IMG/VR virus record: IMGVR_UViG_3300029571_000009
Location: 1-64,000 of that record
DNA from: a virus
Length of the DNA stretch: 64,000 nucleotides
Strand: one strand, 5' to 3'
Made by a program: the position numbers and the translations under genes. Positions within the stretch are counted from its first letter, which is position 1. Every line of letters starts with the position of its first letter. The notes under the pieces are model-generated. The model worked only from the letters and a program-made list of their open reading frames with translations. It had not been told where the DNA came from and did not search any database. Shown in pieces: positions 6,958 to 60,743 of the stretch.

Positions 6958-7145
6958 TTTGTGTTACCAGAAAGCTCATATGATTTACAGTAGCTACACT
7001 TTACATCCTTTCTGATATTTATTCTCTTATTAATTGGGATTCCCATAACCGAATAGCTTAGATATGATTAAAAATTCCCTATGAAAGATTGGTTTTAAGT
7101 GAAATCACTTCATCATTTCTTTCAGTTTTTTATTCTTATATTCTC

Positions 7146-27993: not shown

Positions 27994-28022
27994 TTTAAAA
28001 TACCTCCTAATATAATAAATAA

Positions 28023-28095
28023 TGTGCCATACGAGGTTTGAACTCGTAACATCTTGATTAAAAGTCAAGTGCTCTACCTATTGAGATAATGGCAC
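28023..28095 (-). tRNA. tRNA-Lys(UUU)
   Basis: hand-folded cloverleaf: acceptor GTGCCAT/ATGGCAC, anticodon stem CTTGA/TCAAG with loop CTTTTAA, T-arm ACGAG-TTCAAAC-CTCGT, D-loop AATAGGTA; U10-C25 mismatch in the D-stem; no encoded CCA. Confidence 0.7.
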
Positions 28096-28099
28096 ACAG

Positions 28100-28171
28100 C
28101 TAGGATGGTGGGATTCGAACCACGAATGTCAGAATCAAAATCTGATGTGTTGACCACTTCACCACATCCCA
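28100..28171 (-). tRNA. tRNA-Gln(UUG), atypical T-arm
   Basis: acceptor TGGGATG/CATCCTA with one G-U pair; anticodon stem TCAGA/TCTGA with loop TTTTGAT; D-loop AGTGGTCAA; T-arm folds only as a 4 bp stem with an 8 nt loop (GTGG-TTCGAATC-CCAC); 4 nt from the tRNA-Lys. Confidence 0.5.
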
Positions 28172-39568: not shown

Positions 39569-40319
39569 TTCGTCTATATTTTACTCTTGCTTCCCCTTCT
39601 TCTATAAATTTATCTTTTAAAGAGTCAGCCATTGGGCGTAAAGTTGTTTCGTAATATAATTTTTGTTTATACCATGTACTATATGGTTCAGCCATATGTT
39701 CATAATATTCTTTTACATATTTATGGAAAAATTTATTTATATCTTCTATTAAAGCACCTTGACCTAGCATTTGTTCAATTGTTCCATCTGATAGTCGAAC
39801 AATTTTCTTTGTTTCAGGATCAAATAATACGGAAAATGATTGTTGACAAATTCCATAGCCAGACCATAAATGTAACATTTTATAATGTTCTTCAGTAAAA
39901 ATCATATATCTTTCAACGTATAATTTTCCCGTTTTAAAATCTTTATATTTTATTCCTGGATATTCTTCTTTTCTATGCTCATCGTCTCCGTATTTAATAT
40001 GTGTTCTATCACTTTCCCCTCGTAATGCTTTCGCTTTTTCTTCCTGATATTTTTGTTCAACTCTACGAACTGTAATATTTTGAGTATATCTACCAGTTTG
40101 TGCATCTTTAAGCCAAACATCACCATTATAATCTCTCTCAGTTACCATAATATGATTGGTAGACAAGTCTCTTTTGTTCATATTATGATCTAAATAAGTG
40201 TTGGTTTCATTATTTCTATATCTCGTCTTATGATCATTATCTTCTATAATATTTTTTACATCATTGACACCTTTACAACCAATTCCAAATATTGTATAAA
40301 ATAATCCGAATAAACTCAT
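39558..40319 (-). CDS. hypothetical protein, N-terminal signal or TM segment
   Basis: 253 aa; N-terminus MSLFGLFYTIFGIGC. Confidence 0.5.
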   Translation of the reverse strand: MSLFGLFYTIFGIGCKGVNDVKNIIEDNDHKTRYRNNETNTYLDHNMNKRDLSTNHIMVTERDYNGDVWLKDAQTGRYTQNITVRRVEQKYQEEKAKALRGESDRTHIKYGDDEHRKEEYPGIKYKDFKTGKLYVERYMIFTEEHYKMLHLWSGYGICQQSFSVLFDPETKKIVRLSDGTIEQMLGQGALIEDINKFFHKYVKEYYEHMAEPYSTWYKQKLYYETTLRPMADSLKDKFIEEGEARVKYRRSEK

Positions 40320-40532
40320 ATAATTAACCGCCTTTCTTATTCTTTATAATCTTCACCAAAATGTTTTTTCATAAATTCTTCTGCATTTCTTTCTGCATTA
40401 TTTTTTTCTTCTTTTTTATTATCTATAAATATTGCGATTACAAACATTAATATTATTATACTTATAACTGTACCCATAATCCAAATCCTCCTATTTAACT
40501 ATTCACGTATCACTATTACTATTCTAATTCTA

Positions 40533-40766
40533 TCATATGATTTTAAATTTTGCACTATATATCCAAGTATTGTAGTGATCCATAGTAATGAAATTTAATA
40601 CATTCTCAAATCCCTTTATTACATCCGTTGCAAACAAAAATCCTTTACTGTATCCCTCGTAATTATTATTAGGAATAATTGTAACGTACTTTCCATTCTT
40701 ATGTACTTCATGTCCTCTCTTAGCCATTTCCTTCTTAAATTCTTTGTAATCAAACATATTCATCAC
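40533..40766 (-). CDS. hypothetical protein
   Basis: 77 aa ORF. Confidence 0.4.
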   Translation of the reverse strand: MMNMFDYKEFKKEMAKRGHEVHKNGKYVTIIPNNNYEGYSKGFLFATDVIKGFENVLNFITMDHYNTWIYSAKFKII

Positions 40767-40859
40767 AACCTTTCACTGTAAATTATCCATTCCTTTCCAT
40801 AAAAAAATAAGAGACTGGATATTTTCAATCTCTTATATGTTCTCTAAATTATTCAATTA

Positions 40860-41057
40860 TTATAATTTCTCATCCTCAATATCTTCTAAGCTGTCAATTC
40901 CTAACTCATCCATAATATCTTCACAAAGACAACTTCCATCGCATTCAGCTCCATCATACATAACAGTCATCTCTTCAACATTTAAAACATAACGGCTTTC
41001 TTTCTGTTGCTTAAATAACTTTAGTACCTGTCTTAATAAATATTCTTTCCTATCCAT
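40860..41057 (-). CDS. hypothetical acidic protein
   Basis: 65 aa ORF. Confidence 0.35.
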   Translation of the reverse strand: MDRKEYLLRQVLKLFKQQKESRYVLNVEEMTVMYDGAECDGSCLCEDIMDELGIDSLEDIEDEKL

Positions 41058-41266
41058 AACTTTTCTACCTTTCCTTAAACAAATTCAATGACAATTGCCC
41101 TATAAAATACTCCATCGACATTCTCAATCAATATTGTTTCATCCTGATCGCCTGTCATCATTCTTATATCGCTTACGTCAAGTATTACGACTTCTCCATC
41201 CATATATAAGTCTTTAAATTTTATTTTCATTTAATAACTCCTTCTGAAATTTCCGTTTCGTTGCTT

Positions 41267-52830: not shown

Positions 52831-52911
52831 ATGTGCTTGTAGGAATCGAACCTACTGATAAGTATAATGTTGTTAGCATTATATTATTCACCACATATAA
52901 GCACAAATAAG
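52831..52911 (-). ncRNA. tRNA-like element (degenerate tRNA or tRNA-derived fragment)
   Basis: perfect T-arm GTAGG-TTCGATT-CCTAC; acceptor TGTGCTT/AAGCACA; candidate anticodon stem TAATG/CATTA with loop CTAACAA (would read AAC); D-arm does not fold canonically. Confidence 0.3.
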
Positions 52912-53943
52912 ATAAGTAGCCCTCACATCCTCTGTTATATATTCACTTATTTCCTATTAGGTAGACCTCAAACATTAAATGGTATATTCACTTATTACTT
53001 ATCATCAGGTGACTAACCCTTATGCAGTCAACAGTTTATTATTTTAATTCGCTCCAACTGTTACGAATACCTTACACTGTTTTATACAAACCGATTGCAA
53101 GACATACGGTTTTATCAGTGACATTATTCTCGAACTGATTACAGAATATACTATCAACCTAGTTACACTAGACAGTAGGATTTATAGGCAGGGATTGTAC
53201 TGCTCATACCTCATACACGAATGTAGATAGATACATTCAACATTAGTGTTACCACTAATTCTTGTGTATTGTTCCACTAGCAACTTTTCAAATAACCAAG
53301 CATAAGTTTTCATCGTTTTACCGAAACGCCAGTCGCTAACTATATACTGAGCTATCGAATCATTGTTAATTTTTATGATAGTGAATTGTGTCAATCACTC
53401 ACTATATTTGTACCAAGATGCTATGTGATAGTGTTTACACACTATGTATTATGTACTTGCCACCAGCCACCACTTTTCATGCGCTGTTCACCAAGTTTTC
53501 CCGAATATAGAGTTTATATTCGCTGACCTAGCCACTTGGGAGTGCTCCGTAACACCCTTGTCAGCCCTATACGACATCTCCTCGTTTATGGTTCTCGCAA
53601 ACCACACCCTTGACCGTTCAATCATATGTATTCTTGTAGTGTTGTGCTGATAGTTTAGAGCAGAACATCTACTTGTCCACAAAACCTGAAGTCTATCGTC
53701 ACCTACTTATTAACGCACACCTCCTAACTAGGTTGTATTTTGTGTAAGTGTATTGATGTCGTGTGTAGGTTAATCACACTAGAATACACATACAGTAACC
53801 TTTATGCATTGCGTCTTTAAATTTTGGGTGACTTTAATAGACCGTTTGGGAAGAACTGTCGTACCTCTACGGCTTATCACGGTTTTATTTGTATTGCGTT
53901 TAATGTTATGTATTTTTATTGACTTATGGGTTGAGTAAAAAAG

Positions 53944-54047
53944 AACCCTATCTTGACGAAAATGTAAGTCAAAAATAGGGTTGATGATGGAGAACCCATC
54001 ACAAAATGATGATGTAGATTTTGTGACCTACCCACTCAAAGAGTGGG
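53944..54047. other. cluster of three perfect hairpins inside the ORF-free 52.9-54.1 kb island
   Basis: H1 AACCCTA...TAGGGTT with nested TTGAC...GTCAA (53944-53982); H2 TCACAAAAT-gatgatgtag-ATTTTGTGA (53999-54026); H3 CCCACTC-aaa-GAGTGGG (54031-54047). Confidence 0.5.
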
Positions 54048-54089
54048 TAACGCACTAGGCTTGACACGGTTTATACTCGCCTAGTCGAG

Positions 54090-54527
54090 TTATTTAACCA
54101 TACGGCTCTGCTGATTATCCATGAATTTTGTAGCATCTTCAGCAGACTTGAACTCGTAAATCTGCACATACTTGTCATCCTTTGCAAGTGCGTCATATGT
54201 CTTGTTGCCCTTGCCAAGCTTAGTTGCACCAAAGTCTTCGGTCGCAGACATCTTGATGGCAAACCTAGCCTTGCTTGACAGAAATGCACCCTTGATTGTA
54301 CGGACGAACTTGCCATCGCACTCAAGAGAGCCGACAATCCGTGTAGACTTCTTAGATGCTGTCTTAGGCTCTGACTTAGGTGTTGTGTCTTTAGGTGTCT
54401 CTGTCTTAGGCTGTTCAACTGCTCCAAGTCCTAAGAGTTTAGCGATTTTCTGTGCTTCTGTAGCGTTAATCTGATAAGCTACTCCATTAACGATAACTGC
54501 ATTCTTTAATTCTTTCATAATTACCAA
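54090..54527 (-). CDS. hypothetical protein; first gene of the leftward block, GC-richer than its neighbours
   Basis: 145 aa ORF; track start is TTG, an in-frame ATG lies at 54516 (MKELKN...); alternative frame 54071..54427 rejected. Confidence 0.5.
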   Translation of the reverse strand: MVIMKELKNAVIVNGVAYQINATEAQKIAKLLGLGAVEQPKTETPKDTTPKSEPKTASKKSTRIVGSLECDGKFVRTIKGAFLSSKARFAIKMSATEDFGATKLGKGNKTYDALAKDDKYVQIYEFKSAEDATKFMDNQQSRMVK

Positions 54528-54739
54528 CCTTTCTGTCTCATCTTAGAGACTTAAAAAAATATTTTTTGTTCACTGAACTGCTCGTCAGCCGTTCAGCTTG
54601 GCTACACCTTATCACAAAAAAATTCTGCTTGTTTCGGTGCAAAACTTCCAAAAATGCTTATTTTTCGTGGTTTTGAGTATGGCGAGAATGGGGGTGGCAA
54701 AAACGGATTAAACCCTTATGAAATGTAAAACCAGGTATA

Positions 54740-55545
54740 GCAGGTTTATTTACACACCAAGTCAAAAAATTTTTTATTAAAAATAAATTATCTTATTCTC
54801 AATCCATTAAATCCCCAATAAAATCAAGCAAAATCCCAATTTTCCCATCTCAAATCCCTTATCGTACCCCATATCGCTCAAACCTACTAACCAAGCCACT
54901 TTCACCCATCTTACAATCCAAAAATCAAACTTTCATTTCATCAAAAATTCACTCACAAATCCAAAATTATCCTTATTTATAAGCACTTTTACCGATAACC
55001 ATTTTTAATCCAGAATCATCATTATAATCAATTACATAAATCATAAATCTCTAATCAACAATAAGGGGGCTACATAAAAACCACATCAAAAAATCTAAAA
55101 TTACCTATATACATCACAAAAACAGCCAAAAAAATCCAATACAAACCATAAAAAAATCCTACTATAGCAATACTCAAAAATTCCATTTCTCATCTAAACC
55201 CTCTATCACGCCCATACACAGTCTTTTCATTCCACCCTACCAATAATACCTAAAATCATTTTTACCCACCTAAATGCTCAAAATACAAGGTCAATTTTTT
55301 ACATCACCCAAAATTACATTAACTATCTATATACATTCACATACATTTACTATAAATAATATTATCAATTCTCACGCCTATATAAAAATCCACTCTCACA
55401 GCTCAAATTTCAATTTTTACCCTCTACCCTAACAACTAGCCACCTGACATATAAAAATCCAAAATAGACTCAAAATCATACATTTTTTGCCTTATATCCC
55501 ATGTAAAGAATTTTATCTTAAAACAAATTTAAAAAAGAGAATATA
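54740..55545 (+). other. about 0.8 kb G-depleted (C+A-rich) noncoding tract at the strand-switch point; candidate origin or early-promoter/Rho-utilisation region
   Basis: no ORF of 60 aa or more on either strand; strong strand asymmetry on the plus strand (very few G, abundant A/C); repeated ATATAAAAATCC-like words. Confidence 0.45.
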
Positions 55546-55581
55546 AAATTGTATAAAACACATTTCTAAGGAGGGTTTCAA

Positions 55582-56556
55582 ATGAATACATATTTAATAC
55601 CAACAACAGCAGCATATTGTTATGAACCATATGATTACATTTATTTTGTTTATGCTGATACACCACAAGAAGCTTATATAAAAGCATGTACGAAATTACA
55701 AGGAGAATATATACCACTTGAATCACAAGAATATGAATTATATCCATTTAAATTGTACAAGCCAGATGATACAGATATTTTCCCGTTCCATGAATCAAGA
55801 AAATATGATATACTTACAGAAGCATTTAAAAATACAGAAGGAGCAGAATATATGGCGTATTTCAATGTAAACTGGAATGATTATATAGAAGATCTAATTA
55901 AAATAGCAGATAAAGAAAATTGGTCTAATGATACATACCCTAATAATAAAATTCTTACAAATTATATGGTTCACACATATAAAAAATTATCTTCTGAAAA
56001 GAACGTAATTATTAATAATGAATATGCACTATTTAACACAGGACTTTTTACCGAATTCTATCAACCAATATACGCATATCAAGATAAAAGCAAAAATGGA
56101 TTAAAGTTTCTTACATCATATGATTTAGGAAATATGAATATTTCTGAACGCCCACCAAGAGCAAATTATTTTGATGATCCATCTCTCTTATTATTTGATT
56201 GGCACTACGAAATAAACATTAATTATAAACATATATTGAAAGATATTAATAATATTGAAAGAATTCCCGAAAAGCTTAAAGATAGCAAAAATATTCTTAA
56301 CAATCTCAATGGTTCAATAGAAACTATGAAGAAGCGAGTATCAGCTAATTATAAATTGGCAATACCACAATATTATGAAAACAAGATTCAGTTATTACTT
56401 CCATTATGCTTAGAGGATGATACTACTCCGTCATTAGCCTTAACCGTAACTAAAGTAGGAAATTATTATCAAGGTCACACATGTTTAACACTTGATATGG
56501 CATATAATAATGCTCGTCTTATTGCAAAACCAGAATCTAACTGGTTATCAATATAA
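55582..56556 (+). CDS. hypothetical protein; first rightward gene
   Basis: 324 aa ORF with an AAGGAGGG RBS. Confidence 0.6.
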   Translation: MNTYLIPTTAAYCYEPYDYIYFVYADTPQEAYIKACTKLQGEYIPLESQEYELYPFKLYKPDDTDIFPFHESRKYDILTEAFKNTEGAEYMAYFNVNWNDYIEDLIKIADKENWSNDTYPNNKILTNYMVHTYKKLSSEKNVIINNEYALFNTGLFTEFYQPIYAYQDKSKNGLKFLTSYDLGNMNISERPPRANYFDDPSLLLFDWHYEININYKHILKDINNIERIPEKLKDSKNILNNLNGSIETMKKRVSANYKLAIPQYYENKIQLLLPLCLEDDTTPSLALTVTKVGNYYQGHTCLTLDMAYNNARLIAKPESNWLSI

Positions 56557-56577: not shown

Positions 56578-56610
56578 AACAGGCGGTAATTAAGCTGTCT
56601 GTTTTTTTAT
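56578..56610 (+). terminator. rho-independent terminator
   Basis: hairpin AACAGGCGG...GCTGTCTGTT followed by T7. Confidence 0.55.
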
Positions 56611-57144
56611 TGCATAAATTTATATTATTCTCCACTATTCTATTTAAAAATTCATAAATTCAAATTCATATAAGAGAATAATCTATTGTAAATAATCATC
56701 ACACCACTCTTGCCAAACAAAAAATAATAAATTTTAAAGGAGGACTCATTATGGGTGGGTAACTTAACATTAATTACAACAGAAACATTTAATAACTTAT
56801 CATGTAACTTTTATAGAAATATATTTGATGAATTAGCATATTAAATCACTTCTCAATCTATTTAGGGAGAAAAAATCACACCTCACAGAAAAAATTAGCC
56901 ACTTTTATCTCATACCCTTATAAGTTATCACCTAAGACATAAAAATTGAAATTCACCCTCAAAATCGTTAATTTACTCCACAGATAGGGGGTATGAGAAA
57001 ACTATATACAAGCTCAAAAAGATAGTATGTGCGTAAGCACAAGATGTAGCCCTTTGATAAGGGCGGTCTTTTCGCAGCGTTAGCAAGAAAAGAACATCTG
57101 TGGGATAGACAATTGAAGAGAATAATATATCAAAGGAGTAATCT

Positions 57145-57423
57145 ATGATACAAGATGATATATCAAAATATCTTAAACAAAAAGAAAGCAATATTTCAAA
57201 GAGCAATCGCAAATCAAGGCACAAACATCAATATAAAGAATGTTTAATTCAATTTCCGATTGCATTTACAGGGAAAACATTCATAAACACAAAGTTATAT
57301 GGATATTGTTCCATCTGTGGAAAAATAGGTTCAGTTAAGAATGGAAAATTTAAAGCTGAATTAGAGCAATTAGAAAAATCAAGACAAGGTAACAATAGTT
57401 TTCTTATTGCTATATCAGGTTAA
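57145..57423 (+). CDS. hypothetical basic protein with CxxC
   Basis: 92 aa ORF with an AAAGGAG RBS. Confidence 0.45.
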   Translation: MIQDDISKYLKQKESNISKSNRKSRHKHQYKECLIQFPIAFTGKTFINTKLYGYCSICGKIGSVKNGKFKAELEQLEKSRQGNNSFLIAISG

Positions 57424-57544: not shown

Positions 57545-57751
57545 ATGAAAAAATCAATTTTATTTAAAAGAACAAGAAAATCCGTTGCCAAGAAACTATC
57601 TAATCATATTTATATAGATATTATTAATAGCCATGATACAAAATTAATAATAGATAACTTCACATTATTAGAACTTATTTATATTGAAAGAGCATTAAAG
57701 AAATTGGATTCTATGTCAGAAGAAGAAATTCAAGAATTAAATATAGAATAA
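57545..57751 (+). CDS. hypothetical protein
   Basis: 68 aa ORF with an AAAGGAGAA RBS. Confidence 0.45.
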   Translation: MKKSILFKRTRKSVAKKLSNHIYIDIINSHDTKLIIDNFTLLELIYIERALKKLDSMSEEEIQELNIE

Positions 57752-57760
57752 TTTCACATA

Positions 57761-58004
57761 GGTACATCTCATATGTACCCAAATGAAAACGTTAATCAAA
57801 AACACCATGTACCTAAACCAATCAATAACAATCAAACAAAAAATTATAGAGCTTGTATGAAGCGTAAGCGAAATACAAGCGTAATATTCTTCTCTTGATA
57901 ATATGAGTCTATATAGATATTGACCTACACAAATCCACACCTGACATGTACCCAAATGAAGAAAATTTTTACTTTTGGGTACGTCATACATGTACCCAAA
58001 TGAA
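57761..58004. repeat. iteron/palindrome cluster: three direct copies of ATGTACCCAAATGAA (57773, 57946, 57990) plus inverted partners GGTACAT (57761) and TTTGGGTAC (57974)
   Basis: exact 15-mer repeats read in the sequence; copies 2 and 3 are 44 bp apart; partial fourth copy CATGTACCTAAACC at 57806; lies just upstream of the parB-like gene. Confidence 0.6.
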
Positions 58005-58141
58005 TTTTTGACAATTTCATATAAATGCAATTTTTAATGTTTGTGCGAATTCAAATGGAGAATATACTATTAAACCACTTATTACACACTCTCGCACAAA
58101 ATTGTAACTGTAAATTATGTTTTAGAAGAAAGGATTTTAAA

Positions 58142-59957: not shown

Positions 59958-60743
59958 TTGCCAAACTATGTAAAAATTCCACGAGAAATCATCTATGATA
60001 AAGATCTCTCATCTAAGCGTGTAATAATCTTCTCATATCTTTGCACAAGACGTTCACTTGATGACACGGTGGCATTTTCTACAACAGAACTTTGTCACTG
60101 GTCTAAACTGAAACCTAATTACAGAGATGGGAAAATAAATCAAAAATATTATGAAGTTCTATTACTTCTCTCTCATTATGGATATTTTGAATCATGTCCT
60201 GATTTTGAGAAGTGTCTAAAAGAAAACACCAATTCGGTGAAATATCAGCAAGTACAACTAAATATTGAAAAATTCGATGTGCCTGATAATTTTGGAATCA
60301 TTTATTTTGATGAATTGGATAAAATATTGAATTTTAAGGAAGAGTTAAAAGGTAAAAATATAGACCTTGCGAGAATGTCATCTGCTTATATCTTACTCTT
60401 ACTTTCCTATATTCGTGTCAATTTGAATCGTATAGAAGATAAACCCCTCTGTTGCTATCGGTATTTCAAAACGATTTCAGAAGATATTGGACTTTCTGAG
60501 AGATATATAGGACGCATAGTTGATATTTTGGAAGAATTAAAAATTATAAAATGTCAACCTATGAAGAGAGAAAAATATATTAAAGATGGGAAAGAAAAAT
60601 ATTTAACTACTCCAAAGGTATTTGTTGATTATAGACATTTTATAAATGATGAGCATGGTCAAAGAATTGATAATAAATATGATCCATGTGAGGAAATCAA
60701 AAAACAAATAGAGATTTTGGAGAACAATAAGTTAAGAACATAA
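59958..60743 (+). CDS. replication initiator (RepA_N / phage replisome-organiser N-terminal domain-like)
   Basis: N-terminus YVKIPREIIYDKDLSSKRVIIFSYLCTRRS...AFSTTELCHWS follows the RepA_N pattern. Confidence 0.5.
   Translation: MPNYVKIPREIIYDKDLSSKRVIIFSYLCTRRSLDDTVAFSTTELCHWSKLKPNYRDGKINQKYYEVLLLLSHYGYFESCPDFEKCLKENTNSVKYQQVQLNIEKFDVPDNFGIIYFDELDKILNFKEELKGKNIDLARMSSAYILLLLSYIRVNLNRIEDKPLCCYRYFKTISEDIGLSERYIGRIVDILEELKIIKCQPMKREKYIKDGKEKYLTTPKVFVDYRHFINDEHGQRIDNKYDPCEEIKKQIEILENNKLRT

What the first reader, a model, noticed from the sequence alone, without database searches (positions are those of the whole stretch)
54740..55545. 0.8 kb G-depleted, C/A-rich noncoding tract exactly where transcription changes direction
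Everything to the left is minus-strand and everything to the right is plus-strand. The tract has almost no G on the plus strand, no ORFs, and repeated words such as ATATAAAAATCC and AAAAAATCC. It could be the replication origin (strand asymmetry, AT-rich repeats), an array of early promoters, or a long C-rich, G-poor Rho-utilisation leader for the rightward transcript. Such strong mononucleotide strand bias over 800 bp is unusual.
Basis: seen in the sequence. Interest (0 to 1): 0.6.

Follow-up and report, generated by a model that had tools for sequence, protein, structure and literature searches.

The report
G-poor, structure-free leader before prophage genes
An 0.8 kb non-coding stretch in a common human-gut Lachnospiraceae prophage almost lacks G on the strand that matches the downstream genes, so its RNA could not fold or be translated; it is most likely a long naked leader (two leaders fused) ahead of accessory genes, not a replication origin or a promoter array.

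Summary
Window 54740-55545 is A 41, C 25, G 4.1, T 30 %, against 11.8 % G window-wide (P about 1e-14). The lowest GC skew of any 800-nt window in the 64 kb starts at 54745. No ORF exceeds 52 aa, and outside gene callers call nothing there.

Relatives (uncultured gut phage and prophage contigs; host Lachnospiraceae) keep this composition upstream of the same DUF3825 gene, even where the DNA no longer aligns. The polarity always matches the downstream genes.

As + sense RNA the tract is essentially unfoldable (150-nt MFE 0 to -4.5 kcal/mol; window mean -18.4). It holds 3 start triplets against about 34-43 expected. It is one 803-nt C>G bubble.

It consists of two modules (54745-55064 and 55082-55545). 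Each opens with a + strand-only motif, GGGGGT..AAAAC. In other genomes a RelA/SpoT-like defence-candidate gene lies between the modules.

Best reading: untranslated, structure-free, C-rich leaders of terminator-bounded accessory-gene cassettes, probably Rho-loading or attenuation regions. Transcription start sites and the host's Rho status are untested.

The origin reading fails: no DnaA boxes or iterons, not AT-rich, skew minimum at 56981. The sigma-70 promoter-array reading also fails: 5 sites against 10.4 expected.

The parts
54090..54527 (-). First leftward gene (145 aa, no family match). It marks the left side of the divergence point.
   Evidence: ORF list. No Pfam, PHROG or PADLOC hit.
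54648..54674 (+). AT-rich hairpin followed by a T-run, just upstream of the first G5 motif. Relatives keep a hairpin plus T-run at this position with different sequence.
   Evidence: Read from the sequence and from alignments A2 and A3. RNAalifold did not call a consensus structure, so this rests on visual reading only.
54690..54704 (+). G5 motif copy 1 (GGGGGTGGCAAAAAC). It is the conserved left boundary element of the G-poor leader. It is SD-like and has no usable start codon.
   Evidence: The motif is found only on the + strand, 3 times in 64 kb, and at the start of G-poor tracts in relatives. Predicted duplex with the 16S 3' tail is -16.8 kcal/mol, against -13.0 for the DUF3825 RBS.
54736..54758 (+). 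Conserved block 1 (TATAGCAGGTTTATTTACACACC; consensus cTATAGCTGATTcATCCACACACC), 30-31 nt after the G5 motif. G depletion starts here.
   Evidence: Alignments A1-A3. The spacing is constant although the intervening sequence varies.
54745..55064 (+). Leader module A: G-poor and partly sequence-conserved (72-89 % identity to distant relatives over 54809-55005).
   Evidence: MFE of the + sense RNA is 0 to -3.3 kcal/mol per 150 nt.
54860..54876 (+). Conserved block 3, TATCGTACCCCATATCG. It holds two of the few G residues. Its GTACCCC is the reverse complement of the G5 core GGGGTAC. It lies within the only (C3+ N1-12)x4 motif of the window (54835-54870).
   Evidence: Found in 26 loci and the window with at most 1 substitution. 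C-tract motif.
54971..54999 (+). Conserved block 4, CCTTATTTATAAGCACTTTTACCGATAAC (a small palindrome CTTAT..ATAAG plus CGATAA).
   Evidence: Alignment A1.
55065..55081 (+). G5 motif copy 2 (GGGGGCTACATAAAAAC). It is the only G cluster inside the tract and marks the start of module B.
   Evidence: Anti-SD duplex -10.2 kcal/mol.
55082..55545 (+). Leader module B: G-poor and fast-evolving in sequence. Relatives with DUF3825 proteins 64-91 % identical show no DNA similarity here, yet keep the composition.
   Evidence: Polymorphism spectrum.
55568..55584 (+). Shine-Dalgarno sequence (AAGGAGGG) and ATG of the DUF3825 gene.
55582..56556 (+). DUF3825 gene, the cargo gene served by the leader.
   Evidence: Pfam PF12873, E = 4e-63.
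56578..56610 (+). Intrinsic terminator after the DUF3825 gene. It closes the cassette and shows that transcription runs rightward.
   Evidence: The same element is in L004 at 6997-7022.
56987..57002 (+). G5 motif copy 3 (GGGGGTATGAGAAAAC). It opens the next rightward unit, which here has a structured, G-containing leader.

Best explanation
The tract is the untranslated 5' leader region of rightward (+ strand) accessory-gene cassettes in a large Lachnospiraceae prophage.

In this genome two such leaders lie head to tail: module A (54745-55064) and module B (55082-55545). Each opens with the + strand motif GGGGGT..AAAAC. In relatives a RelA/SpoT-like defence-candidate gene sits between them.

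Selection acts on the + sense single strand, most probably the RNA. It keeps that strand C-rich and nearly G-free, which has three direct consequences, all computed here:
- the RNA cannot fold;
- it carries almost no AUG, GUG, UUG or Shine-Dalgarno sequence, so no ribosome covers it;
- it is one long C>G bubble.

Inferred mechanism: this naked, C-rich RNA is an entry and attenuation zone for termination factor Rho. It keeps expression of the cargo genes (DUF3825 here, the toxSAS-like gene elsewhere) low or conditional. A G-free RNA would also lack the after-G cleavage sites preferred by RNase Y. The SD-like G5 motif at the 5' edge could act like a STAB-SD 5' stabiliser.

Shown: composition, polarity, conservation, lack of structure, lack of start codons, and cassette architecture with terminators.
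For: Composition is conserved without sequence conservation. In 38 of 41 distinct relatives the 400 nt upstream of the DUF3825 gene have G of 3.5-9.8 %, C of 21-30 % and + sense MFE of -2 to -11 kcal/mol per 150 nt. The three exceptions have a gene directly upstream. BLASTN finds no similarity to 55010-55555 in relatives whose DUF3825 proteins are 64-91 % identical.

Polarity. The G-poor strand is always the sense strand of the downstream gene. This includes tracts lying between two + strand genes (RelA/SpoT-like gene, then module B, then DUF3825, in L004, L012, L045, L047, L051 and L053), where leftward transcription would run antisense into a gene.

Structure. + sense MFE is 0 to -4.5 kcal/mol over 54750-55400, against a window mean of -18.4 (sd 7). 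The - sense folds normally, at -14 to -24.

Translation signals. There are 3 start triplets in 801 nt, against about 34 (+ strand average) or 43 (right-hand genes). The only SD-strength sites are the G5 motifs and real RBSs.

Rut-like measures. The C>G bubble spans 803 nt with area 16,736 %·bp and a peak %C-%G of 37, the highest in the window. In vitro, every tested template with a bubble over 78 bp or an area over 700 gave Rho-dependent termination (PMC6144790).

Cassette structure. + strand intrinsic terminators follow the DUF3825 gene (56578-56603) and, in L004, the RelA/SpoT-like gene. Cargo varies between close relatives: a PDC-S33 candidate defence gene (E = 3e-119), HTH proteins, a second DUF3825 gene, and Ku.

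Polymorphism. Per-site transition rates are strand-symmetric (C>T 52/112, G>A 7/16, T>C 15/133, A>G 15/183). C at 25 % is far above the roughly 11 % these rates would give at equilibrium, which points to selection holding C on the + strand rather than a strand-biased mutation process.

The RNase Y preference for cleavage after G (PMC4608709) and the STAB-SD precedent (PMC4113751) come from the literature.
Against: No transcription start site is known. No sigma-70-type -35/-10 pair sits at a fixed distance from the G5 motif, and none of good quality lies in the tract.

Clostridia include both Rho-positive and Rho-negative species (PMC13613805), and the host's status was not determined. Rho is a minor player in some Firmicutes (general knowledge).

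C at 25 % is modest beside classic rut sites, and YC density is only 15.9 against 12.0 per 100 nt.

In some relatives (L031, L033, L041, L023) only about 90 nt separate the second G5 motif from the DUF3825 start. A long module B is therefore not required for that gene.

G5 copy 3 precedes a structured, G-containing leader, so the motif and G-depletion are separable.

The polymorphism test uses major and minor alleles, not polarised mutations.
Confidence: 0.4

Rival explanations
1. The tract is an RNA leader with a reader other than Rho. The naked, start-codon-free, G-free RNA would serve as a stability or translation device. The SD-like G5 motif binds a 30S subunit at the 5' edge (STAB-SD-like protection from RNase J1). 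G-depletion removes RNase Y sites. The C/A-rich unstructured stretch acts as a standby site or translational enhancer, or as a binding platform or sponge for a single-strand RNA-binding protein.
For: The same structural facts as for the best explanation apply. The G5 motifs pair with the 16S 3' tail as strongly as real RBSs, at -10 to -17 kcal/mol, yet have no start codon at working distance. The STAB-SD precedent comes from a 558-nt leader in Bacillus thuringiensis (PMC4113751). RNase Y cleaves after G in A/U-rich context (PMC4608709). The hypothesis does not need Rho.
Against: No known system needs 400-800 nt for these roles. The conserved AAAAC half of the motif is unexplained by anti-SD pairing. 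The motif is GGGGG rather than the GGAGG used by the phage's real RBSs. L004's module B has no G5 motif.
Confidence: 0.22
2. The feature works at the DNA level and depends on transcription: an R-loop or G-quadruplex-prone zone, possibly a replication origin of the ColE1, T4 or mitochondrial type. Leftward transcription would make G-rich, C-poor RNA that stays hybridised to the C-rich + strand. The displaced - strand would be G/T-rich.
For: The tract has extreme GC skew. The - strand composition (G 25, T 41, A 30, C 4 %) resembles a strand long exposed as single-stranded DNA. The only (G3+ N1-12)x4 motif of the 64 kb lies on the - strand at 54835-54870. Replication-type genes lie 2.5-4.4 kb to the right. 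A weak leftward promoter-like site lies at 55568-55540.
Against: The tract has no DnaA boxes, no iterons and no AT-rich unwinding element. The skew minimum is at 56981, not in the tract. Transition polymorphisms are strand-symmetric per site. The G4 motif is not kept in all relatives (alignment A1). In many relatives module B lies between two + strand genes and behind a + strand terminator, which does not fit leftward transcription. The tract is duplicated or split by cargo genes, which is unlike an origin.
Confidence: 0.1
3. The tract holds unconventional promoters. The GGGGGT..AAAAC motif (with the CCACAC box) would be the promoter or activator site of a phage-specific sigma factor or RNA polymerase, and the tract would be mostly promoter plus initial transcribed region.
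For: Cassettes are insulated by terminators, so each needs its own promoter in the 60-100 nt that hold the motif. The motif is strictly + strand and sits at the head of each unit. Sigma-70-like sites are scarce in the whole 54.5-58.3 kb zone. Strong sigma-70 promoters exist for the leftward units in L004 and L018.
Against: This explains about 20-60 nt per copy, not 400-800 nt of G-depletion. Only 3 copies occur in 64 kb, so it is not a general phage promoter. No RNA polymerase or sigma gene was seen in the window (largest ORF 500 aa; only a subset of the ORFs was searched against family libraries). The reading is compatible with, rather than an alternative to, the leader reading.
Confidence: 0.15
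4. The tract has no function of its own. It would be non-coding filler left by cassette gain and loss, with its composition inherited or produced by strand-biased mutation.
For: The region is a mosaic hotspot with variable cargo. Module B varies about as much per column as the coding sequence (27 % against 24 % of columns variable). Module B length ranges from about 90 to 480 nt.
Against: The composition is kept across relatives whose sequence is no longer alignable. C is well above the mutational equilibrium, and no strand asymmetry is seen in the transitions. The conserved blocks retain exactly the few G residues.
Confidence: 0.08

Closest known systems
Rho-utilisation (rut) regions in untranslated leaders and phage early transcripts (lambda nutR-tR1 rutA/rutB; Rho-dependent attenuation in long 5' UTRs such as Salmonella mgtA and corA, and the E. 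coli rho leader) — named from general knowledge
   Same: C>G, G-poor, unstructured, ribosome-free RNA upstream of the regulated gene. The C>G bubble far exceeds the 78-nt and 700 %·bp values that always gave termination in vitro.
   Different: The tract is 5-10 times longer than a rut site. G-depletion is far more extreme than Rho requires. The host is a Firmicute of unknown Rho status. No boxA/boxB-type antitermination site was recognised. Nothing has been shown experimentally.
STAB-SD 5' mRNA stabiliser of Bacillus thuringiensis cry3A (PMC4113751)
   Same: An SD-like sequence at the 5' edge of a long leader, far from any start codon and strongly complementary to the 16S 3' end. The host is a Firmicute.
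   Different: The motif is GGGGGT plus a conserved AAAAC, not GAAAGGAGG. The 5' end of the RNA is unknown. This explains the motif, not the G-free tract.
G-poor, CAA-rich omega leader of tobacco mosaic virus, and bacterial C/A-rich translational enhancers (general knowledge)
   Same: An almost G-free, A/C-rich, unstructured leader directly upstream of the coding sequence.
   Different: Those elements are 30-70 nt long, whereas this is 320-800 nt. The SD-dependent Firmicute translation system is different.
Morons: prophage accessory cassettes made of promoter, gene and terminator (general knowledge)
   Same: Independently bounded units with their own terminator, variable between close relatives, carrying defence-type cargo.
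   Different: Classical morons have short, ordinary upstream regions. Here each cassette carries a 0.3-0.5 kb compositionally constrained leader.
Replication origins with strand asymmetry (oriC; lambda and SPP1 iteron origins; ColE1 and T4 R-loop origins)
   Same: Non-coding, at a point where gene direction diverges, and not far from replication genes.
   Different: The tract has no DnaA boxes, no iterons and no AT-rich unwinding element. The skew minimum lies elsewhere.

Membership tests
Rho-dependent attenuator / rut region | Uninterrupted C>G bubble of at least 78 nt on the non-template strand | tested here: met
   The bubble spans 803 nt, with area 16,736 %·bp and peak %C-%G of 37. Criterion taken from PMC6144790.
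Rho-dependent attenuator / rut region | RNA largely free of secondary structure | tested here: met
   MFE is 0 to -4.5 kcal/mol per 150 nt across 54750-55400, against a mean of -18.4. The same holds in 38 of 41 relatives.
Rho-dependent attenuator / rut region | Not covered by translating ribosomes | tested here: met
   No ORF above 52 aa. Three start triplets in 801 nt and no SD apart from the G5 motifs. No genes called in 10 public contigs.
Rho-dependent attenuator / rut region | Lies inside a transcript of that sense, downstream of a promoter | tested here: inconclusive
   Polarity, downstream RBS, gene and terminator all fit, but no promoter or transcription start site could be identified.
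Rho-dependent attenuator / rut region | Host encodes Rho, and termination depends on it | not testable with these tools
   The host family is Lachnospiraceae. Clostridia contain Rho-positive and Rho-negative species (PMC13613805).
Replication origin | Cluster of DnaA boxes or initiator iterons | tested here: not met
   No TTATCCACA with up to 1 mismatch in the tract; 29 hits window-wide against 27.8 expected. No direct-repeat family beyond 2 short copies.
Replication origin | AT-rich unwinding element | tested here: not met
   GC is 28.6 % against 31.4 % in the left block. The neighbouring region 56.5-57.7 kb is more AT-rich.
Replication origin | Cumulative GC-skew extremum at the site | tested here: not met
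   The minimum is at 56981. The tract is the steepest descending part (-211 per kb) rather than the turning point. The measure is confounded with gene direction, and only 64 kb of a genome of roughly 155 kb (the size of the longest related viral contigs) is available.
Array of sigma-70 early promoters (T7 A1-A3 type) | Several good -35/-10 pairs in one orientation | tested here: not met
   5 sites against 10.4 (sd 2.9) expected; the best is 10 of 12 at 55336-55365. No information at -35/-10 positions upstream of the G5 motifs.
STAB-SD-type 5' stabiliser (for the G5 motif) | Strong complementarity to the 16S rRNA 3' end without a start codon at working distance | tested here: met
   Duplex energies are -16.8, -10.2 and -13.5 kcal/mol, against -13.0 and -9.1 for real RBSs. 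The nearest GTG or ATG overlaps or abuts the motif. The 16S tail sequence was assumed from general knowledge.
STAB-SD-type 5' stabiliser (for the G5 motif) | Located at or near the 5' end of the mature mRNA and raises its half-life | not testable with these tools
   Needs 5'-end mapping and decay measurements.
Known RNA families (Rfam 15) | Covariance-model match | tested here: not met
   No hit in the tract at gathering score or at E up to 1. RNAalifold finds no consensus structure at the boundary.
Moron-type accessory cassette | Gene bounded by its own terminator and present or absent among close relatives | tested here: met
   Terminators at 56578-56603 and at L004 5456-5485. Variable cargo.

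The most novel reading that the evidence does not exclude
The G-free leaders could be a sensing device for prophage-encoded defence cargo. A long, naked, C-rich RNA would normally be aborted by host Rho (or rapidly cleared), which keeps toxic genes such as the RelA/SpoT-like PDC-S33 protein and DUF3825 silent. When a superinfecting phage disables host termination or RNA decay, the leader would be read through and the defence genes would switch on. This would be a 'guard' of the host transcription-termination machinery built from RNA composition alone.

A second unexcluded reading is that the 5' SD-like G5 motif loads a 30S subunit that travels along the structure-free, start-codon-free leader to the first AUG.
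Probability: 0.08. Interest if true: 0.85.

Novelty: new variant of a known kind. Interest (0 to 1): 0.5.

Why it matters
The element sits in a very common human-gut prophage: its DUF3825 protein is indexed in 421 collection blocks and occurs on contigs up to 585 kb. It precedes genes that look like defence or accessory cargo.

A leader family defined by composition rather than by sequence or structure would be a simple and overlooked way to control toxic prophage genes in Firmicutes. The defining properties are a G-free, C-rich RNA with zero folding energy over hundreds of nucleotides. Such a leader would be a natural substrate for studying Rho, RNase Y or J1, and 30S binding in Clostridia, where these processes are poorly known.

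It also gives a practical rule for annotation: extreme sense-strand G-depletion marks untranslated leaders, and should not be read as an origin.

Tried and rejected
Known RNA families: Rfam at gathering score and at E up to 1 gave nothing in the tract.

Similarity to deposited phages: megablast and blastn against 50,697 records gave no match. The closest protein relatives of the flanking genes are uncultured gut phages.

Repeats: only 2-copy short words and a weak period-10 run at 55117-55155.

A genome-wide promoter role for ATATAAAAATCCA, AAAATCC or TCCACACA: none of these is positioned upstream of other genes.

Sigma-D/sigma-28 reading of the CGATA(A/T) boxes, and sigma-54, TcdR-type or T7-type readings of the G5 region: checked by eye against consensus spacings recalled from memory; none fitted.

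DNA curvature: A-tract phasing near 11 bp is weak (z = 3, left half only).

Consensus RNA structure at the boundary: RNAalifold found none. A possible pairing of G5 with block 3 shows mixed covariation: A-T, G-C and G·T combinations, but A×C in L024 and L035. This was read and not tested formally.

Association of the leader with DUF3825 genes in other phages (Listeria A006, Ruminococcus NatCom): no such leader is present.

Strand-biased mutation: per-site transition polymorphisms are symmetric.

The 40160-41149 G-poor region is ordinary antisense coding sequence.

One call failed on a length limit.
Full report
OBSERVATION

Window 54740-55545 contains 334 A, 200 C, 33 G and 239 T. G is therefore 4.1 %, against 11.8 % for the whole + strand (binomial P = 1.3e-14). 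The most negative GC skew of any 800-nt window in the 64 kb is -0.74, and that window starts exactly at 54745 (median -0.29). The two longest G-free runs of the window, 87 and 85 nt, are inside the tract.

No ORF exceeds 52 aa. Gene callers on ten independent public contigs call nothing in the homologous stretch. ORFs of at least 100 aa run leftward up to 54527 and rightward from 55582.

ATATAAAAATCCA occurs twice, and AAATCC occurs 8 times against 1.9 expected. There are no tandem repeats or iterons.

One caveat applies. The + strand left of the tract is also C>G, because it is antisense to genes. The other window with under 6 % G, at 40160-41149, is ordinary coding antisense. The tract stands out because it is non-coding, has A>T together with C>>G, and has the most extreme skew.

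WHAT THE GENOME IS

The flanking genes have no close relatives among deposited phages. The DUF3825 protein (55582-56556; Pfam E = 4e-63) brought in three sets of relatives:
- 42 loci from IMG/VR human-gut viral contigs, the longest about 150-185 kb;
- two loci in Lachnospiraceae genomes;
- ten ENA metagenome contigs of up to 585 kb.

The element is therefore a widespread, large prophage of gut Lachnospiraceae. The window also carries:
- NAD-salvage genes, an RNA ligase, several DNA methyltransferases and two tyrosine recombinases;
- a sliding clamp and ParB-like genes;
- a DnaD/replication-initiator-like gene at 59958.

CONSERVATION

Nearly every relative has a G-poor tract directly upstream of the DUF3825 gene. 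In 38 of 41 distinct sequences, the 400 nt before the start codon have G of 3.5-9.8 %, C of 21-30 % and a + sense folding energy of only -2 to -11 kcal/mol per 150 nt. The three exceptions have another gene immediately upstream.

DNA similarity tells a different story. BLASTN finds 54809-55005 in distant relatives at 72-89 % identity. It finds nothing for 55010-55555 once the DUF3825 proteins drop to 64-91 % identity. So composition is conserved where sequence is not.

In alignments of the left part, the few G residues are exactly the conserved ones:
- GGGGGT..AAAAC (54690-54704);
- cTATAGCTGATTcATCCACACACC (54736-58);
- TATCGTACCCCATATCG (54860-76);
- CCTTATTTATAAGCAcTTTTACCGATAAC (54971-99).

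ARCHITECTURE

The motif GGGGGT[A/G]nnn[A/T]AAA[A/C] occurs three times in the 64 kb, always on the + strand: at 54690, 55065 and 56987. In relatives the motif, or the variant GGGGGTATGTTTACAT, marks the beginning of each G-poor tract.

In many genomes a + strand gene is placed inside the tract, with G-poor sequence on both sides. The inserted gene can be:
- a 389-aa RelA/SpoT-like protein that matches the PADLOC defence candidate PDC-S33 (E = 3e-119);
- an HTH protein;
- a second DUF3825 gene.

In L004 the RelA/SpoT-like gene is followed by a + strand intrinsic terminator. After that comes the homologue of window 55132-55545, and then the DUF3825 gene. In the window, the DUF3825 gene is followed by a + strand terminator at 56578-56603.

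The 0.8 kb tract is thus two leader modules head to tail: module A at 54745-55064 and module B at 55082-55545. They belong to a hotspot of terminator-bounded accessory cassettes. This explains the unusual length.

PHYSICAL CONSEQUENCES OF THE COMPOSITION

As + sense RNA the tract is practically unfoldable. MFE is 0 to -4.5 kcal/mol for 150-nt windows across 54750-55400, against -18.4 (sd 7) for the window as a whole. The - sense folds normally, at -14 to -24.

All bacterial start codons contain G. The tract accordingly has only 3 start triplets, against about 34-43 expected. Its only Shine-Dalgarno-strength sites are the G5 motifs themselves.

On the criteria of Nadiras et al. (PMC6144790), the tract is one uninterrupted C>G bubble of 803 nt with area 16,736 %·bp. 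That is more than twenty times the value above which every tested template gave Rho-dependent termination. Its peak %C-%G is the highest in the window.

WHICH LEVEL IS SELECTED

A double-stranded DNA function does not require one strand to be G-free. The polarity always follows the downstream gene, including where the tract lies between two co-directional genes and behind a terminator. This points to the + sense single strand, most simply the RNA.

Polymorphism among 26 close relatives shows strand-symmetric per-site transition frequencies: C>T 52/112, G>A 7/16, T>C 15/133 and A>G 15/183. C at 25 % is far above the roughly 11 % those rates would give at equilibrium. This argues against a strand-biased mutation process and for selection that keeps C. 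The test uses unpolarised alleles and is only indicative.

MECHANISM

I commit to the following reading, at about 0.4 for the Rho version and about 0.6-0.65 for an RNA leader of some kind. The tract is a pair of untranslated, structure-free, C-rich leaders of rightward accessory-gene cassettes. The naked RNA is an entry and attenuation zone, most plausibly for Rho, that keeps cargo expression low or conditional.

A second, non-exclusive layer is also possible. The G5 motif pairs with the 16S 3' tail as strongly as real RBSs (-10 to -17 kcal/mol) but has no usable start codon. In that respect it resembles the STAB-SD 5' stabiliser of cry3A (PMC4113751). A G-free RNA also lacks the after-G sites preferred by RNase Y (PMC4608709).

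Several steps remain inferred:
- the transcription start, since no sigma-70-type promoter could be found at a fixed distance from the motif or in the tract;
- Rho dependence;
- the host's Rho status, given that Clostridia include both Rho-positive and Rho-negative species (PMC13613805).

REJECTED OR WEAKER READINGS

Origin of replication. The tract has no DnaA boxes and no iterons, and it is not AT-rich relative to its surroundings. The cumulative G-C minimum is at 56981 rather than in the tract, and is confounded with gene orientation.

R-loop or G-quadruplex variant. This cannot be fully excluded. The only (C3+ N1-12)x4 motif of the window is at 54835-54870. However, that motif is not conserved in all relatives, and the cassette context argues against leftward transcription.

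Array of sigma-70 promoters. Such sites are fewer than expected, 5 against 10.4.

An unconventional promoter linked to the G5 motif remains possible. It would explain tens of bases, not hundreds.

Pure filler. This is contradicted by the retention of the composition across sequences that no longer align.

COMPARISON AND NOVELTY

Functionally the tract looks like an oversized rut-type leader. Its 5' element resembles STAB-SD, and it sits inside moron-like cassettes. It fails the tests for an origin and for a sigma-70 promoter array, and it matches no Rfam family.

I found no description of such a leader family in the searchable literature: 'DUF3825' returned no paper, and the searches on Rho-dependent termination and RNase Y returned only general work. 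I rate it a new variant of a known kind, of moderate interest (0.5).

The most novel reading not excluded is that the leader works as a composition-encoded guard. It would switch on prophage defence genes when host termination or RNA decay is disabled by another phage (probability about 0.08).

Noticed in passing
window 54022-54090 (-): A Pistol self-cleaving ribozyme (Rfam RF02679, 60 bits against a gathering score of 34.5) lies immediately 3' of the 145-aa leftward gene. The surrounding 53900-54100 is the most strongly folding stretch of the neighbourhood on both strands (MFE about -44 kcal/mol per 150 nt).
   Followed up: partly
window 56987-57110 (+): The third G5 motif is followed by a strongly structured non-coding stretch (MFE -38 kcal/mol per 150 nt). 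This stretch includes a terminator-like hairpin at 57049-57064, just before the 92-aa gene at 57145. It looks like an attenuator or riboswitch-type leader, and no Rfam family matches it.
   Followed up: partly
window 57750-58010: There are four copies, direct and inverted, of CATGTACCCAAATGAA / TTTGGGTAC upstream of the ParB-like nuclease gene. One inverted pair (57974-58000) also scores as an intrinsic terminator. These could be operator, parS-like or iteron sites. They share GGGTAC with the G5 motif core and with block 3.
   Followed up: partly
window 54835-54870 (+), G-rich on the - strand: This is the only (C3+ N1-12)x4 motif on either strand of the 64 kb, giving i-motif or G-quadruplex potential. 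Only 1.6 % of shuffles of the tract have one. It is not conserved in all relatives.
   Followed up: partly
L002 4274-5443; L004 4276-5445; L045, L047, L051 and L053: A 388-390 aa RelA/SpoT-domain protein that matches PADLOC candidate defence family PDC-S33 (E = 3e-119) is inserted in the leader region of many relatives and is absent from the window. Other variants carry HTH proteins, a second DUF3825 gene, or Ku. The locus is a cargo hotspot.
   Followed up: partly
window, whole; e.g. 56672, 57116, 57503 (+) and 7018, 11961, 17148, 25184 (-): AAGAGAATAAT (up to 1 mismatch) occurs 23 times against 8 expected, almost always on the strand of the local genes. Several copies lie 30-80 nt upstream of start codons. 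Some copies may simply be SD-like purine runs, or the word may be a phage promoter element.
   Followed up: no
window 52831-52905 (-), 28022-28171 (-): ARAGORN calls a tRNA-Val(AAC) at 52831-52905 that Rfam does not report at gathering score. It lies in a 2.3 kb ORF-poor zone (51.7-54.0 kb). tRNA-Lys and tRNA-Gln at 28022-28171 are found by both tools.
   Followed up: no
window 56732-56763 (+): A strong SD (AAAGGAGG) is followed by a 3-codon ORF, ATG GGT GGG TAA. Gene callers report a 29-aa gene at the corresponding position in relatives (e.g. L046 4169-4258), so this is probably a truncated small gene.
   Followed up: no
L043 6759-7104 and L044 6989-7325: In the two Lachnospiraceae genome loci a C-poor, G/T-rich stretch lies just left of the G-poor leader. 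This mirror-image composition might be a leftward G-free element.
   Followed up: no
L004 3487-3740 (-), L018 5312-5429 (-): Near-consensus sigma-70 promoters (12/12 and 11/12 in L004; 11/12 and 10/12 in L018) point leftward just left of the G5 motif. No comparable promoter exists for the rightward units.
   Followed up: partly
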